A DNA stretch of 64,000 nucleotides from an uncultured Actinomycetes bacterium (GCA_963794055.1 CAWCCL010000013.1:3742-67741), one strand, 5' to 3'. Counted from the stretch's first letter, positions 1 to 3,774 are shown. Made by a program: numbers and translations. Notes: generated by a model not told the origin, from the sequence alone.

Positions 1-276
1 GACGCGTCCGAAGACGTCAAATGGTTGGTGCTCAACGCCGAGGCGTGGACGTACCTCGACGCCACCGCGATCGACGTCCTGGCACGACTCCAGGTCGAGC
101 TCGAGCAGCGGGGCGTCGCGCTCTGCTTCGCCCGCCTGAAGGGGCGGCAGCGCGAGATCTTCGAGGAGACGGGCCTCACAGCGCAGATCGGGCCCGACCG
201 TCTCTTCCCCACGGTCCGGGCTGCAGTCGCGGCGTTCGAGTCACGGCCCCCCGAAGAATCCACCGAAGGAGACTGA
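1..276 (+). CDS. SulP-family transporter, C-terminal STAS domain (5' end outside the window)
   Basis: The frame is open from nt 1. The translation ...KWLVLNAEAWTYLDATAIDVLARLQVELEQRGVALCFARLKGRQREIFEETG... is a typical STAS tail. Stop TGA at 274-276. Confidence 0.7.
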   Translation, partial: DASEDVKWLVLNAEAWTYLDATAIDVLARLQVELEQRGVALCFARLKGRQREIFEETGLTAQIGPDRLFPTVRAAVAAFESRPPEESTEGD

Positions 277-279
277 GCG

Positions 280-1614
280 TTGGGCGGCTCGGGCCTTGTC
301 GCGATCGCGCTCCTAGTCCTCGCGTACTCGGCGGTCTCGCGACGGCTCTCGGGTTCGGTCATCACCGCTGCGATGGTGTTCGTCGCCGGCGGCATGCTGG
401 CGAGCGGCGACGCCCTCGGCTGGCTCGATCCGACGATCGACAGCGAATCCGTCCGCTGGGTCGCCGAGGCGACGCTGACGGTCGTCCTCTTCTCAGACGC
501 GTCACGCATCGACCTCGGGGCGCTCCGTCGCGAGTACGTCCTGCCGCTTCGCCTGCTCGCGATCGGGCTGCCGCTGACGATCGTGGCCGGTGCCCTCGCT
601 GGCGTCGCGGTGCTCGGAGAGCTCGCGTTCATCGAGGCCATCTTGCTCGCGATCGTGCTTGCCCCGACGGACGCCGCGCTGGGGCAGGCCGTCGTCACTG
701 ATCCCCACGTTCCTTCACGCGTTCGCCAAGGGCTCAACGTCGAGAGCGGGCTGAACGACGGCATCTGTGTACCGCTTCTCTTGATCGCGATCGCGATTGC
801 CGAGGCGGAAGAGGGCGTGATCGGAGACGGCGAGGCGTTCCGCCTCGTGCTCGAGGAGATCGGCTTCGGATGCGTCGGGGGCGTCGTGGCGGGCCTCGCA
901 GCCGCAGTCGTGATCAGGGTGGGTGTCCCGCGCCGCCTCGCCGATTCGACCTGGCTCCAGGTCGTCCCGGTCGCCGGAGCCGCGCTCGCCTACGGGCTGG
1001 CCGTGTGGCTGGGCGGCAGCGGGTTCATCGCTGCTTTCGTCGGAGGCGCCGTCTTCGGAGGGCTCCGCCGCGAGCTCGGAGGCGAGGTGACGCTCTTCCT
1101 CGAAGAGACGGGCGGCGTGCTGGGTGCGGTCACGTTCATCCTCTTCGGCGCCGTCATGCTCGTCCCGGTGCTCGACGATCTCACCGCCGACATCGTCCTG
1201 TACGCGCTCCTCAGCCTGACGGTCGTTCGCATGCTTCCCGTAGGCCTGGCGATGCTCGGATCCGGTGCCCGACCGCCGACGGTGGCCTTCCTCGGCTGGT
1301 TCGGGCCGCGTGGACTGGCGTCGATCGTGTTCGCCGTGATCCTCATCGAGGATGCCCACCTGGCGAACGAGCCAGTGCTACTGAACACGATCTTCCTCAC
1401 GATCGGGCTCTCGGTCCTTCTGCACGGCGTGACCGCAGCGCCGTTCGCGGGGCGCTACGCAGCGTGGTTCGCGGCCCACCCGCGCGATGCCGCGCCTCCG
1501 TTCGAGAGCGCGCCGGCGCCCGAACAGCGCCCGCACCGATGGGCGACCGGGCTACGGGATAAACGCCGGGACGCCGGGAACGCCGCTCATCGTGACGATG
1601 CGAGCAGGGACTAG
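280..1614 (+). CDS. Cation:proton antiporter (Na+/H+ exchanger, CPA1-type)
   Basis: 444-aa polytopic membrane ORF with a TTG start 4 nt after the upstream stop. It has hydrophobic helices throughout and the motif ...LAPTDAALGQAV..NVESGLNDG.... Confidence 0.75.
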   Translation: MGGSGLVAIALLVLAYSAVSRRLSGSVITAAMVFVAGGMLASGDALGWLDPTIDSESVRWVAEATLTVVLFSDASRIDLGALRREYVLPLRLLAIGLPLTIVAGALAGVAVLGELAFIEAILLAIVLAPTDAALGQAVVTDPHVPSRVRQGLNVESGLNDGICVPLLLIAIAIAEAEEGVIGDGEAFRLVLEEIGFGCVGGVVAGLAAAVVIRVGVPRRLADSTWLQVVPVAGAALAYGLAVWLGGSGFIAAFVGGAVFGGLRRELGGEVTLFLEETGGVLGAVTFILFGAVMLVPVLDDLTADIVLYALLSLTVVRMLPVGLAMLGSGARPPTVAFLGWFGPRGLASIVFAVILIEDAHLANEPVLLNTIFLTIGLSVLLHGVTAAPFAGRYAAWFAAHPRDAAPPFESAPAPEQRPHRWATGLRDKRRDAGNAAHRDDASRD

Positions 1615-1656
1615 GGGACGCGACCGAGGAGAGTTGGCTGTGACGGATCACCACCA

Positions 1657-1802
1657 CGGACGCGGCGGGAGTCGAACCCGCGCAAGATTTCAATCGCCCG
1701 TGCTGGGCCGAGCCCGCTGCGGCCCCACGATTCCACGGGGTCGCGCGATTGCCTGGTGCAGGCTCTCTCTGAAGGGCGAGTCCACCGCTAAGGGGCGAGC
1801 GC
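1657..1802 (-). ncRNA. tmRNA (ssrA)-like 3' tRNA-like domain fragment; no 5' partner found
   Basis: The minus strand reads GCGGG-TTCGACT-CCCGC (T-arm, 1665-1681). It is followed by a 7-nt acceptor 3' strand CGCGTCC (1658-1664) with U at the position-70 equivalent. Hairpins such as CCCCGTGGAATCGTGGGG precede it instead of an anticodon arm. A tag-end-like GCG CTC GCC CCT TAG (..FFALAP*) lies at 1788-1802. No CCA is encoded and no GGGG..TTCGAC 5' half is present. Confidence 0.35.
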
Positions 1803-1871
1803 AAAAAAACAGCTGTGGCCGCACGCGGCTCCCTACCCTCGCGGCGTCATCCGATCGGAAAGGAGCACCAG

Positions 1872-2132
1872 ATGGGAAGCAGTGCCCATATGAGTCACAT
1901 GGTGAGCGCACTCGCCGCACACGGAGAGGAACTCCGCGAGGAAACGTGGGAGGACGTCCCAGTGGTCGTAAAGGCGCTCGGCCCGAAGCTCGAGCTCGAG
2001 GCCGAGAGCGATGAGATCTCGCGTTGGCTCGTCTTCGAAGGTCCGGACGGAAAGCCTGAGCACCTAGCGCTCGCGCCGCTGACGATCTACGACCTCGAGC
2101 GCCGCTATCCGGACGAGATCGTTGCCGATTAG
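1872..2132 (+). CDS. Hypothetical small acidic protein (86 aa)
   Basis: ATG at 1872 is preceded by GGAAAGGAG (1858-1866). It is in frame with track ORF 1815..2132. G+C-rich third codon positions but no recognisable family. Confidence 0.5.
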   Translation: MGSSAHMSHMVSALAAHGEELREETWEDVPVVVKALGPKLELEAESDEISRWLVFEGPDGKPEHLALAPLTIYDLERRYPDEIVAD

Positions 2133-2156
2133 CGTGGTCGAAGACCGAGCGGCAGG

Positions 2157-2462
2157 TCAGGCCCGGCGTCGGTCGATGACGACGATGCCGGGTGCTCCGT
2201 GGGCTTGAAGCTCGATGCAGCTCGTGAACCTGTTGTCGAGCCAGACCGTCGGTGCCGCTTCTTCCTCCTCCATACCAAGGGCCGCGTAAATGCCAAGACC
2301 CTCGTGGCCGGCCTGCGCCTGCAGAAGCTCCCTTGCCTGCTCCTCACTGTCCGCGTGCACAACAGCCGCAAACACCTTGTCGTACCACGGCCGCCACGGG
2401 TTCGCGTCTCTATGCAGAATGCCCAGGCGCGGCGTCAGCAGCCAGAGTCGCGTGGCCGTCAT
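2157..2462 (-). CDS. Hypothetical protein (101 aa)
   Basis: Track ORF. Its start overlaps the upstream gene's stop by 4 nt (ATGA), which suggests a two-gene operon. No recognisable family. Confidence 0.5.
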   Translation of the reverse strand: MTATRLWLLTPRLGILHRDANPWRPWYDKVFAAVVHADSEEQARELLQAQAGHEGLGIYAALGMEEEEAAPTVWLDNRFTSCIELQAHGAPGIVVIDRRRA

Positions 2463-2878
2463 CGCTTTTCCTTAGCGACCATGACCCCGTACGGCCGGCG
2501 CCTAGCCGGTCCGTAGGCGAGCCTCCCCGCGAGACGTATGAGGGTCGTTACTTCGCCGCGGGCGAGGTCGAGCTCCTCTGCCCAGGCGAGGAGATCGTCG
2601 AACTCGATCCGCCCGTGCGCATATGCGGTCGCTAGCGCGCTGAGGACAACCTCGCGGGGCTGCGGCTCTACCGCGAGCGGGGAACGACGCTCCGCGCGCC
2701 GCGCGAAGTTGTCTTCCTCGAAGCTGTCGCTGCCGAAGACGTTCACCAGCTCGCGGCGCTCGATGCCGAGATCGGCTGCCCAGAAGGTCATCTCCTCATA
2801 GTCGATATGCCCGCTCCGGTGGGCGTACGCGAGCACGATGACGCAGGGATCGGGTTGGTCAGATGCGCTCATTGTCAT
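2459..2878 (-). CDS. Hypothetical protein with an internal two-fold repeat (139 aa)
   Basis: ATG at 2878 is preceded by GAGGAAGGAG. Two related about 35-aa modules are present: AYAHRSGHIDYEEMTFWAADLGIERRELV and AYAHGRIEFDDLLAWAEELDLARGEVTTL. Confidence 0.55.
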   Translation of the reverse strand: MTMSASDQPDPCVIVLAYAHRSGHIDYEEMTFWAADLGIERRELVNVFGSDSFEEDNFARRAERRSPLAVEPQPREVVLSALATAYAHGRIEFDDLLAWAEELDLARGEVTTLIRLAGRLAYGPARRRPYGVMVAKEKR

Positions 2879-2933
2879 TGCTCCTTCCTCGATCTAGGGT
2901 CGCGCCAGGCCTAGGACCGAGGCGGCCGCAAGC

Positions 2934-3021
2934 GGTCCCTCGTTCGAGGGACCAGCCCCCTTCCAAGGGCGCTCAAACGCGCATCCAGCCAAGGGAAGTC
3001 AAGTTCCCTCGAACGAGGGAC
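2934..3021. repeat. Inverted pair of 20-nt hairpin units
   Basis: GGTCCCTCGTTCGAGGGACC (2934-2953) and GTTCCCTCGAACGAGGGAC (3003-3021). The second is the reverse complement of the first with one mismatch. The hairpin AGGGAAGTCAAGTTCCCT overlaps it as an alternative pairing. Confidence 0.7.
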
Positions 3022-3169
3022 CCAGCCAGCGAAATTCGAAGGAAACGCCTCGCCAGGGGCTGGAAGACGACCGCTTGTGCTTCCCGCCGAAGGCTCAATA
3101 ATCGGGTCGTCGACGTCCGAGACTCTGTCGCAGGCGACAACCGGGCCAGTGCCCACTCGGCGCCTCCAT

Positions 3170-3193
3170 GCACGCACGGTCGCACGCACGGTC
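3170..3193. repeat. Perfect 12-nt tandem duplication
   Basis: GCACGCACGGTC GCACGCACGGTC, read directly from the sequence. Confidence 0.9.
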
Positions 3194-3630
3194 GACGGCG
3201 CGCACAGGTGCCTCTTGATGCTCCCCGAGCGGTCCGCGAGAGCAGCGCCAGCCAGCAAGGAACCGTCATTCCATGCGGGCTAGGCCATTAGGGCAAAACC
3301 CACGAAAGGAGTCCGCCGGTACGCCAACATACCGAGGTTGCAAGTCGTGCGGCGGACAGTTCAGCCGACCTACGAATGGCAACTTCCTGAGCGCCCGAAG
3401 CACCGCTGAGCGTATGCCACCTCGACCCAAGGTGCATGTCCGGAACCACGCTTGCAGCTTCCGTGCGAACGCGATGGCAACGACTTGAGAGGAACGTGCA
3501 AGTTCAGATGGCGAAGTGGCCGGTAGGCCTGGCGAACGTCCCCTCCTTCAGCACCGAACGCGGCCCGAGGGTCATACCCGAGCAAGCGTCCGGTACAAGA
3601 TTGGGACAAACTTTTTCCCGAGCACAATCC

Positions 3631-3666
3631 GCCCGAAAGGAAAAGGCCCCGCTCTGCAGGGCCTTT
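3631..3666 (-). terminator. Rho-independent terminator downstream of tRNA-fMet
   Basis: Stem AAAGGCCC/GGGCCTTT (3642-3649 and 3659-3666) with a 9-nt loop. On the minus strand it is followed by TTTTCCTTT. Confidence 0.6.
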
Positions 3667-3671
3667 CTCAG

Positions 3672-3745
3672 TAGCGGGGGCAGGATTTGAACCTGCGACC
3701 TCCGGGTTATGAGCCCGGCGAGCTACCTGACTGCTCCACCCCGCG
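3672..3745 (-). tRNA. Initiator tRNA-fMet (anticodon CAT)
   Basis: The minus strand reads CGCGGGGTGGAGCAGTCAGGTAGCTCGCCGGGCTCATAACCCGGAGGTCGCAGGTTCAAATCCTGCCCCCGCTA. It has a C1 mismatch at the top of the acceptor stem and three G-C pairs closing the anticodon stem, very like E. coli tRNA-fMet. CCA is not encoded. Confidence 0.93.
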
Positions 3746-3774
3746 GCGCAGGCGCAAGGATAGCATCAGGCCCT

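What the first reader, a model, noticed from the sequence alone, without database searches (positions are those of the whole stretch)
2879..3630. About 750 bp with no ORF, reduced G+C and dense secondary-structure signals between an orphan operon and tRNA-fMet
In a genome where genes are otherwise packed (many 4-nt overlaps), this is by far the longest non-coding stretch. It contains the following:
- An inverted pair of 20-nt hairpin units (2934-2953 and 3003-3021) with a competing hairpin (AGGGAA..TTCCCT) between them, which looks like an attenuator or switch.
- A perfect 12-nt tandem duplication (3170-3193).
- Several longer-range complementarities (for example GTCCGCC...GGCGGAC at about 3311-3357).
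- A segment superficially like a group II intron domain V (3409-3447).

It lies upstream of, and on the same strand orientation as, the 2459-2878 gene. It could therefore be a very long structured 5' leader, an independent large ncRNA, or the eroded remains of an element integrated next to tRNA-fMet.
Basis: seen in the sequence. Interest (0 to 1): 0.6.

Follow-up and report, generated by a model that had tools for sequence, protein, structure and literature searches.

The report
Relic mobile-element control region
The long gene-free stretch beside the initiator tRNA gene is mostly the leftover promoter and operator DNA of a small integrating mobile element that has lost its integrase, plus about 300 bases of orphan filler, so it is an ordinary genomic scar and not a new structured RNA.

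Summary
Window 2879-3670 has no credible gene and 63% G+C against 72% for the window. It holds a perfect 18-nt inverted repeat and a perfect 12-nt tandem duplication, both far beyond chance. It is a mosaic, not one feature.

- **3636-3670:** the tRNA-fMet terminator, conserved in relatives.
- **3335-3640:** 306 nt with no homologue found.
- **About 2873-3334:** the control region of a rare two-gene operon (139-aa and 101-aa orphan proteins).

In two metagenome relatives (L012, L044) this control region lies between the operon and a divergent HTH_17-tyrosine integrase gene. L044 sits within about 330 nt of the tmRNA gene. Here homology stops at 3334, about 110 nt before the integrase would start.

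The two "hairpin units" are copies of the palindrome TCCCTCG-NN-CGAGGGA. It is kept upstream of the operon in seven of the eight related loci aligned. In the host genome it is enriched between genes, upstream of c-di-GMP, pilT and regulator genes. I read them as operators, not an attenuator.

Against an RNA reading: no Rfam match, no covariation, no unusual folding across 3050-3550, and no group II intron signal. tRNA-fMet is an integration hotspot in this genus. Verdict: an eroded island junction of modest interest.

The parts
3671..3745 (-). tRNA-Met (CAT) with initiator features; its 3' end faces the gap
   Evidence: ARAGORN. Rfam tRNA, 65.2 bits. The 1:72 mismatch and GGG:CCC anticodon stem are read from the alignment.
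3636..3670 (-). Intrinsic terminator of the tRNA (hairpin 3642-3666 followed by a U-rich tract). This is the last core-genome sequence before the variable region, and in G001 it is part of the att repeat.
   Evidence: Inverted repeat I6. Homology to syntenic relatives G001 and G031 starts at 3636-3641. A 79-nt repeat of the terminator plus the tRNA 3' part lies 12.7 kb away in G001.
3335..3640 (.). Orphan 306-nt spacer. It has no homologue, no coding signal and no unusual fold, and its origin is unknown.
   Evidence: No match in the relatives searched, plasmids or phages. No similarity to L012, L044, L010 or L011, and no integrase remnant by tblastn. z-scores are near 0. Near-identical short contigs exist in soil runs X1 and X2; the X1 contig 3286-3537 bridges position 3334.
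3257..3334 (.). 78-nt block shared with the integrase-linked relatives. It contains the palindrome CGGTACGCCAACATACCG (3317-3334). In the relatives this block lies about 110 nt upstream of the integrase start. Homology ends at 3334.
   Evidence: 90% identity to L012:1138-1215. The same palindrome occurs in L012 and L044.
3067..3256 (.). Segment shared with L014 and L044 but missing in L012. It contains the tandem repeat 3170-3193 (two CCGTGCG-containing 12-mers on the minus strand).
   Evidence: CCGTGCG-N5-CCGTGCG is kept in L014 and L044 with an inverted third copy 11 nt upstream. The tandem is unique in the own genome.
2934..3022 (.). Two copies of the 20-bp palindrome GGTCCCTCG-NN-CGAGGGACC (2934-2953 and 3003-3022). 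I read them as operators of the operon promoter.
   Evidence: The proximal copy is 20/20 in L013, and copies occur upstream of the operon in L012, L014, L044, L110 and L112. In the host genome the motif is enriched between genes. It is conserved upstream of an HD-GYP gene in 9 genomes of the genus.
2905..2930 (-). Promoter-proximal box conserved across the family: GCGGCCG, then N4-6, then GGTCCTA(G/C)GC. It includes a TAnnnT-like hexamer about 30 nt upstream of the start codon.
   Evidence: GGTCCT is invariant in all 8 aligned loci and the GCGGCCG box nearly so. It sits 45-65 nt from the ATG in every locus.
2459..2878 (-). First gene of the orphan operon: 139 aa as listed, probably 137 aa from the ATG at 2872. 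The protein is two three-helix repeats of unknown function.
   Evidence: Homologues (18 cluster representatives among 1.84 billion). AlphaFold model, pLDDT 77, with no fold match. No Pfam, PHROG or NCBIfam family above threshold.
2157..2462 (-). Second gene of the operon (101 aa), overlapping the first by 4 nt. It is co-conserved in L012, L014, L044 and L110.
1658..1734 (-). tRNA-like T-arm and acceptor fragment at the far end of the islet. It may be a decayed att repeat of a tmRNA-targeting element.
   Evidence: 20/21 to the own ssrA T-arm and 92% over 25 nt to the L044 tmRNA 3' end. Own tRNA-Asp and tRNA-Ala T-arms match almost as well. Weak tRNA-Sec hit of 16.8 bits. Homology to G003 ends at 1615, so the islet is 1616-3635.

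Best explanation
The gap is DNA-level control sequence and debris, not a structured RNA. It lies inside a 2-kb strain-specific islet (window 1616-3635), wedged between a conserved Na+/H+ antiporter gene and the terminator of tRNA-fMet.

**Origin.** The islet is the surviving half of a small integrative element. In two metagenome relatives (L012, L044) the same two-gene operon (139 aa and 101 aa) is transcribed divergently from an HTH_17-tyrosine integrase gene, across a 370-615-nt intergenic control region. Here that region is cut at 3334, about 110 nt before the integrase would begin. The integrase side is replaced by 306 nt of orphan sequence that runs into the tRNA terminator.

**Shown.**
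- The homology blocks and the breakpoint.
- The absence of coding, Rfam and covariation signals.
- The conservation of the motifs.
- The hypervariability of this tRNA flank.

**Inferred.**
- The two 20-bp palindromes are operators for a dimeric regulator. Together with the invariant GCGGCCG...GGTCCTA box about 30-55 nt upstream of the start codon, they control the operon promoter.
- The regulator is probably host-encoded, because the same core palindrome sits upstream of host signalling genes.
- The CCGTGCG repeats and the GGTAYGTTGSCGTACC palindrome belong to the control side of the lost integrase.
For: **No gene and no known RNA**
- No coding periodicity and no family hit in six frames.
- No Rfam hit in the window or in the intact relative's spacer.
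- Only the inverted repeat and the terminator fold better than shuffles.

**Strain-specific islet at a hotspot**
- The sixty relatives searched share only 3636-3670.
- G003 shares 1-1615 at 94% and nothing beyond.
- The 139-aa gene was found in none of the other 400 family genomes searched beyond two marginal hits (E > 1e-4).
- At least 10 unrelated tRNA-fMet flanks occur among 17 genus genomes.
- G001 has a 12.7-kb integrase and TrwC element bounded by a 79-nt repeat at this tRNA.

**Homology to integrase-linked elements**
- L012 aligns to window 3066-1839 and 3334-3257, then diverges.
- Its divergent upstream gene is an integrase. The full-length relative P0007 carries PF12728 and PF00589, with weak excisionase and integrase hits.
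- L044 shows integrase, a 615-nt spacer, then the operon homologues, with tmRNA nearby.

**Conserved motifs**
- The tandem CCGTGCG repeat and the GGTAYG palindrome are conserved in L014, L044 and L012.
- The palindromes and the GGTCCTA box are conserved across 8 loci.
- Of host-genome matches to the palindrome, 16 of 28 are non-coding, against 22% for 40 control palindromes.
- These sites lie upstream of HD-GYP, GGDEF, pilT, LuxR-type and ECF sigma genes.
- They are kept across 9 genus genomes without hairpin-preserving changes.
Against: - No integrase or recombinase remnant is detectable in the window.
- No repeat of the tRNA-fMet 3' end occurs within the 7.4 kb to the contig end.
- The far-end T-arm fragment matches ssrA only slightly better than tRNA-Asp or tRNA-Ala.
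- How a tmRNA-linked element type came to lie beside tRNA-fMet is unexplained.
- The link of the element family to ssrA rests on one organism's contigs.
- In L110 a gene is called only 100 nt upstream of the operon, so a long spacer is not universal.
- The regulator that would bind the palindromes is unknown.
- There are no transcription data.
- The join between 3613 and the tRNA is not confirmed by any contig outside the MAG.
Confidence: 0.7

Rival explanations
1. The stretch is a long structured 5' leader (attenuator or riboswitch-like switch) of the 139-aa operon. The two hairpin units and a competing hairpin would decide read-through.
For: The inverted-repeat region folds much better than shuffles (z -2.8 to -4.4). 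It lies upstream of the gene and on its strand. The proximal 150-190 nt are conserved with the gene in all relatives.
Against: - No U-tract follows the hairpin (direct reading).
- RNAalifold gives a positive (penalising) covariation term and does not recover the long hairpin.
- The competing hairpin is not kept in L014.
- Palindrome spacing is 66-69 nt in three loci, about 17 nt in L044 and 32 nt in L112.
- The same palindrome occurs at host promoters, where half-sites vary without keeping pairing.
- A TAnnnT-like hexamer lies only about 30 nt from the start codon, which would put the palindromes upstream of the transcript.
- No Rfam family matches.
Confidence: 0.08
2. An independent non-coding RNA gene lies in the unique 3335-3640 segment or in the 3067-3334 segment.
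For: There is no gene and the composition is distinct. The segment recurs almost unchanged in short contigs of two soil studies. Blocks of 3067-3334 are conserved with L012, L014 and L044.
Against: - Folding z-scores are near zero on both strands.
- No promoter-like or terminator-like site was found inside.
- No homologue of 3335-3640 was found in the relatives searched, plasmids, phages or earlier scan notes.
- The conserved blocks are short repeats and palindromes, and their order differs between loci.
- No Rfam match.
Confidence: 0.07
3. The stretch is the decayed remains of a protein gene, for example the integrase or an excisionase.
For: In the relatives an integrase gene would start about 110 nt beyond 3334 and point towards the tRNA.
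Against: No codon periodicity. No Pfam hit at E up to 1 in the long open frames. tblastn of the L044 integrase against 3300-3700 gives only noise (best E 0.015, 20 bits).
Confidence: 0.05
4. The junction is an assembly artefact. The left 7.4 kb of the contig would have been joined to the tRNA-fMet region from another genome or locus.
For: This is a MAG of 65% completeness. The left part has lower G+C. The SulP and NhaP genes are 94% identical to G003, while the core Ppx region is 82% identical. No contig of the runs laid covers 3613-3671.
Against: The break in homology lies at 3636-3641, outside the tRNA. An assembler has no shared repeat there to join on. An X1 contig bridges 3334 exactly. 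Variable flanks at this tRNA are the rule in the genus, including complete assemblies.
Confidence: 0.05

Closest known systems
Genomic islands and integrative elements that target tRNA or tmRNA genes, and their decayed remnants (for example the ssrA islands of Dehalococcoides, PMC3146451)
   Same: It lies next to the 3' end of a tRNA gene. It has lower G+C and is absent from close relatives. The flank is hypervariable in the genus. A tRNA/tmRNA-like T-arm fragment sits at the far boundary. Relatives of the cargo operon are linked to a tyrosine integrase. In this genus ssrA carries 2-4 direct repeats of its 3' end, which is the tandem-island pattern that paper describes.
   Different: No recombinase is left here. 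No repeat of the adjacent tRNA's 3' end was found. The Dehalococcoides islands use a serine recombinase, whereas the relatives here carry an HTH_17-tyrosine integrase. The remnant lies at tRNA-fMet, while the one intact relative lies near ssrA.
Divergent regulatory regions between the integrase and a regulatory or cargo operon in temperate phages and integrative elements (general knowledge, not tested against a specific family)
   Same: A long spacer lies between divergent genes. It is packed with short direct repeats and palindromes that are conserved while the sequence between them drifts.
   Different: No repressor, Cro-like or excisionase gene is recognisable in the operon. Its two proteins are orphans with no fold match.
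7-2-7 type palindromic operators of dimeric helix-turn-helix regulators, such as NarL/FixJ-family sites (recalled from memory, a lead only)
   Same: Two 7-nt inverted half-sites are separated by 2 nt. They occur singly or in pairs upstream of genes. One host site lies upstream of a LuxR-type response-regulator gene.
   Different: The half-site sequence TCCCTCG matches no operator I can name. No binding protein has been identified.
Transcription attenuators and riboswitch leaders; group II intron domain V
   Same: Hairpins lie upstream of a gene on the coding strand. One 39-nt segment has a superficial resemblance to domain V.
   Different: There is no terminator U-tract, no covariation, no Rfam match including RF00029 at E up to 10, and no intron-encoded protein.

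Membership tests
tRNA/tmRNA-targeting integrative element (genomic island) | Site-specific recombinase (integrase) gene within the element | tested here: not met
   No integrase in window 1616-3635 by Pfam or tblastn. An integrase is present only in the related loci L012 and L044.
tRNA/tmRNA-targeting integrative element (genomic island) | Lies directly downstream of the 3' end of a tRNA or tmRNA gene | tested here: met
   The variable DNA starts 30-35 nt after the tRNA-fMet 3' end, just past its terminator.
tRNA/tmRNA-targeting integrative element (genomic island) | Direct repeat of the target gene's 3' part at the distal boundary | tested here: inconclusive
   No 12-mer or longer of 3631-3760 recurs in the 7.4 kb to the contig end. 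A T-arm fragment at 1658-1734 matches ssrA 20/21 but matches tRNA-Asp and tRNA-Ala nearly as well.
tRNA/tmRNA-targeting integrative element (genomic island) | Absent from close relatives, with deviant composition | tested here: met
   Window 1616-3635 was found in none of the relatives searched. G+C is 0.647 against 0.707 for the genome.
Described structured RNA families (Rfam 15), including group II intron domain V-VI | Covariance-model match at or near the gathering score | tested here: not met
   Only the tRNA passes. All other hits are at or below 20 bits with E of 0.4 or more. Nothing matches in the intact relative's spacer.
Transcription attenuator or RNA switch | Alternative hairpins, one of them a terminator with a U-tract, with pairing kept by covariation | tested here: not met
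   No U-tract. The covariation term is +2.68 and the long hairpin is not in the consensus fold. Spacing and the competing hairpin are not conserved.
Palindromic transcription-factor operator | Dyad-symmetric sequence conserved at orthologous promoters while the flanks drift | tested here: met
   20/20 in L013, which shares 62% protein identity. Present upstream of the operon in seven of the eight related loci aligned. Host sites are kept across 9 genus genomes.
Palindromic transcription-factor operator | Enrichment in intergenic DNA genome-wide | tested here: met
   16 of 28 matches with up to 2 mismatches are non-coding, against 443 of 2041 (22%) for 40 composition-matched control palindromes, using a crude gene call.
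Palindromic transcription-factor operator | A protein that binds it | not testable with these tools
   No candidate was identified. The 139-aa protein has no recognisable DNA-binding fold.

The most novel reading that the evidence does not exclude
The palindrome TCCCTCG-NN-CGAGGGA and the invariant GCGGCCG...GGTCCTA box may mark an undescribed regulon of soil Actinomycetota. It would couple c-di-GMP turnover, pilT and regulator genes to a rare mobile two-gene operon of orphan proteins. In addition, the long integrase-operon spacer, with its CCGTGCG repeat triplet, may be a dedicated switch that decides between element maintenance and excision. Less likely, part of the spacer encodes a regulatory RNA.
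Probability: 0.2. Interest if true: 0.45.

Novelty: new member of a known kind. Interest (0 to 1): 0.27.

Why it matters
This mainly corrects the annotation. A conspicuous 'structured' non-coding stretch turns out to be the scar of a degraded integrative element at a tRNA hotspot, so it should not be carried forward as a candidate large ncRNA or intron.

Three by-products may be useful:
- a small family of integrase-linked elements with a long, motif-rich control region;
- evidence that both tRNA-fMet and ssrA are busy integration sites in this genus;
- a candidate operator motif shared by host signalling genes and the mobile operon, which gives a testable entry to regulation in an uncultured soil lineage.

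Tried and rejected
- **blastn against plasmids and phages.** Searching 2879-3640 gave no match.
- **Palindrome scans of public collections.** The 20-bp palindrome gave 25 single hits in genome contigs, about what chance gives for G+C-rich DNA. None lay near a homologue of the operon. It gave no hit in viral contigs.
- **Locus searches with the 139-aa family.** Genome contigs and viral contigs gave nothing. Metagenome contigs gave one locus, L014.
- **Reads.** Only short, low-depth contigs of soil runs lay on the stretch. Window 2958-3281 and 3613-3670 were not covered. No RNA run was laid, so nothing can be said about expression.
- **Integrase remnant.** Searched for in 3300-3700 and found negative.
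- **Own-genome palindrome at C5:66958.** tblastx similarity of L012's flank to that region was noise from an Ala/Leu-rich membrane domain. The palindrome there is a host promoter site, not a second element.
- **Orphan proteins.** The Atlas feature search gave nothing usable for the 139-aa and 101-aa proteins. The AlphaFold model of the 139-aa protein had no PDB match at E below 0.9.
- **CCGTGCG tandem in IMG/VR.** The pattern hit long arrays of a 12-nt unit whose constant part is different. This is a chance overlap, not a relative.
- **G003's ssrA islands.** They hold no relative of the integrase or the operon.
- **Alternative hairpin.** I considered GGGACC...GGTCCT competing with the proximal palindrome. 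The pairing is lost in L044, L111 and L112 while GGTCCT stays invariant, so I rejected it.

Full report
**What is there.** Window 2879-3670 lies between the start of a minus-strand gene (2459-2878) and the 3' end of a minus-strand tRNA-Met(CAT) gene (3671-3745). The tRNA has a mismatched 1:72 pair and three G-C pairs in the anticodon stem (alignment).

The stretch has mechanical ORFs of up to 142 codons. None shows the strong third-position G+C bias seen in the flanking genes, and none of ten long open frames hits Pfam at E up to 1. G+C is 0.634, against 0.716 for the window and 0.707 for the genome.

- The 18-nt inverted repeat (2934-2951 / 3005-3022) and the 12-nt tandem duplication (3170-3193) are exact and far beyond chance.
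- The 7-nt GTCCGCC/GGCGGAC pairing is at chance level.
- Rfam 15 finds only the tRNA, even at E up to 10, and nothing for group II introns.
- Sliding-window folding shows that only 2900-3049 and the tRNA terminator beat shuffled controls. Window 3050-3550 does not.

**It is strain-specific DNA at a hotspot.** The window comes from contig C13 of a 2.7-Mb MAG that is 65% complete. I did not verify that.

- In the 60 relatives searched, only 3636-3670, the terminator hairpin, is shared.
- On the other side, G003 shares window 1-1615 at 94% and nothing beyond the stop codon of the Na+/H+ antiporter gene.
- The variable islet is therefore 1616-3635, with G+C of 0.647.
- Among 17 genus genomes with enough flank, the DNA next to this tRNA falls into at least 10 unrelated types.
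- In G001 a 79-nt repeat (terminator plus the last 49 nt of the tRNA) lies 12.7 kb away. It bounds a tyrosine integrase and a TrwC relaxase.

tRNA-fMet is thus a real integration site in this genus.

**Where the gap's sequence comes from.** The 139-aa protein is rare. It has four metagenome relatives in the 90%-identity clusters and 18 cluster representatives among 1.84 billion. Beyond two marginal hits (E > 1e-4), it was found in no other of the 400 family genomes searched.

- **L012 (90% protein identity).** It aligns to window 3066-1839 at 79% and to 3334-3257 at 90%. It lacks 3067-3256 and shows no similarity beyond 3334.
- **L014 (60%).** It aligns up to its contig end (about window 3233). 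It keeps both palindromes and the tandem repeat.
- **L013 (62%).** It keeps the proximal palindrome 20/20.

Upstream of the shared block, L012 carries a divergent gene, frameshifted in that contig. Its full-length relative P0007 (548 aa) has HTH_17 and Phage_integrase domains.

P0007's contig L044 gives the intact layout, in this order:
- tmRNA gene
- a 104-aa gene
- two further genes
- a second integrase
- the HTH-integrase
- a 615-nt spacer
- homologues of the 139-aa and 101-aa genes

The window's tandem repeat matches that spacer. The 78-nt block (3257-3334), with its palindrome GGTAYGTTGSCGTACC, lies about 110 nt upstream of the integrase start in both L012 and L044. In the window, homology ends exactly there. 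The next 306 nt match nothing, including the integrase protein. An X1 soil contig bridges 3334 without a mismatch, so the breakpoint is real in at least one read set. X1 may be the source sample.

**How the surviving part most likely works.** Alignment of eight loci (window, L012, L013, L014, L044, L110, L111, L112) was made from proteins down to about 30% identity and from different neighbourhoods. It shows an invariant GGTCCT and a nearly invariant GCGGCCG box 45-65 nt upstream of the start codon. In seven of the eight loci, one or two copies of a TCCCTCG-NN-CGAGGGA-type palindrome lie just upstream of these boxes.

- The hexamer after GGTCC reads TAnnnT in most loci. It is about 30 nt from the ATG, which fits a -10 element with a short leader. 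This is inference.
- Palindrome spacing is 66-69 nt in three close loci, about 17 nt in L044 and 32 nt in L112.
- RNAalifold finds no covariation and does not recover the long hairpin.
- In the host genome, 16 of 28 matches to the core palindrome are non-coding, against 22% for 40 control palindromes.
- Those matches sit 50-160 nt upstream of HD-GYP, GGDEF, pilT, LuxR-type and ECF sigma genes.
- Upstream of the HD-GYP gene, two sites persist in 9 genus genomes while the flanks drift. Their half-sites vary without restoring pairing.

This is the behaviour of a protein-binding operator, not of an RNA hairpin. The genus genomes sampled in the family search lack the operon, so the binding protein is probably host-encoded. 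An element-encoded autoregulator cannot be excluded.

The CCGTGCG triplet (one inverted copy and two direct copies with 12-nt period in L014 and L044; two direct copies here) is unique in the own genome. It is conserved only in the integrase-linked subfamily. I assign it by inference to control of the lost integrase.

**What remains unexplained.**
- The far end of the islet carries a tRNA-like fragment (1658-1734). Its T-arm matches the own ssrA 20/21 and the L044 tmRNA end. That would fit a decayed att repeat of a tmRNA-targeting element. In this genus ssrA is followed by 2-4 perfect repeats of its last 37-46 nt, as described for Dehalococcoides ssrA islands (PMC3146451).
- However, tRNA-Asp and tRNA-Ala T-arms match almost as well. 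The remnant also sits at tRNA-fMet, not at ssrA.
- No repeat of the tRNA-fMet end exists in the 7.4 kb to the contig end.
- The origin of 3335-3640 is unknown.
- The join to the tRNA is not confirmed outside the MAG.
- The two operon proteins have no family and no fold match.

**Verdict.** The RNA options are not supported. The feature is a new example of a known kind, namely an island remnant with its promoter and operator region. Interest is modest.

Noticed in passing
window 1658-1734 (minus strand): A tRNA-like fragment sits right after the Na+/H+ antiporter gene. Its T-arm matches the own ssrA 20/21 but matches tRNA-Asp and tRNA-Ala nearly as well. The closest relative, G003, has a tRNA-Thr-like 5' half at the same place instead (L046 about 3229-3292).
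   Followed up: partly
own genome C5:66958 and 66989, C5:99943, C6:148070, C12:155925, C14:142487, C21:28782, C16:119990: A palindrome ATCCCTCG-NN-CGAGGGAT lies upstream of HD-GYP, pilT, LuxR-type regulator, ECF sigma and GGDEF genes. It is a candidate regulon motif, conserved upstream of the HD-GYP gene in 9 genus genomes.
   Followed up: partly
genus relatives, for example G003:C8 (L090 437, 3957, 12285): The last 37-46 nt of ssrA recur as 2-4 perfect direct repeats within about 20 kb downstream of ssrA in many genomes of the genus. This indicates tandem islands at the tmRNA gene.
   Followed up: partly
G001:C93:11748-24556 (L010 covers part): A 12.7-kb element with a tyrosine integrase, a TrwC relaxase and an ECF-type sigma factor is bounded by a 79-nt repeat of the tRNA-fMet 3' part plus its terminator.
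   Followed up: partly
window 1-1615: The SulP end and the Na+/H+ antiporter gene are 94% identical to G003:C9, while the core Ppx region is only 82% identical to G003. G003 also has a second copy at 86%. This suggests recent transfer of that block.
   Followed up: no
own genome C17:928-1615 (L065): The own ssrA is followed by a homologue of the 104-aa gene that follows ssrA in L044 (81% DNA identity). The contig ends 927 nt further on, so a related element may sit at the own ssrA but is not assembled.
   Followed up: partly
L092, L095, L101, L103, L104, L106-L108 (IMG/VR contigs): Long tandem arrays of a 12-nt unit (constant TGCGGCGGAC plus three variable bases) occur, often at contig ends. 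They appear unrelated to the window.
   Followed up: no
window 2872-2878: The 139-aa gene probably starts at the ATG at 2872 (137 aa). Most homologues start MS..., and the GGAG of the ribosome-binding site (2881-2884, minus strand) is only 2-3 nt from the ATG at 2878.
   Followed up: partly
L012:344-1031 (minus strand): The HTH-integrase gene of this metagenome contig is split over three frames. This is either a pseudogene or low-coverage assembly error.
   Followed up: no
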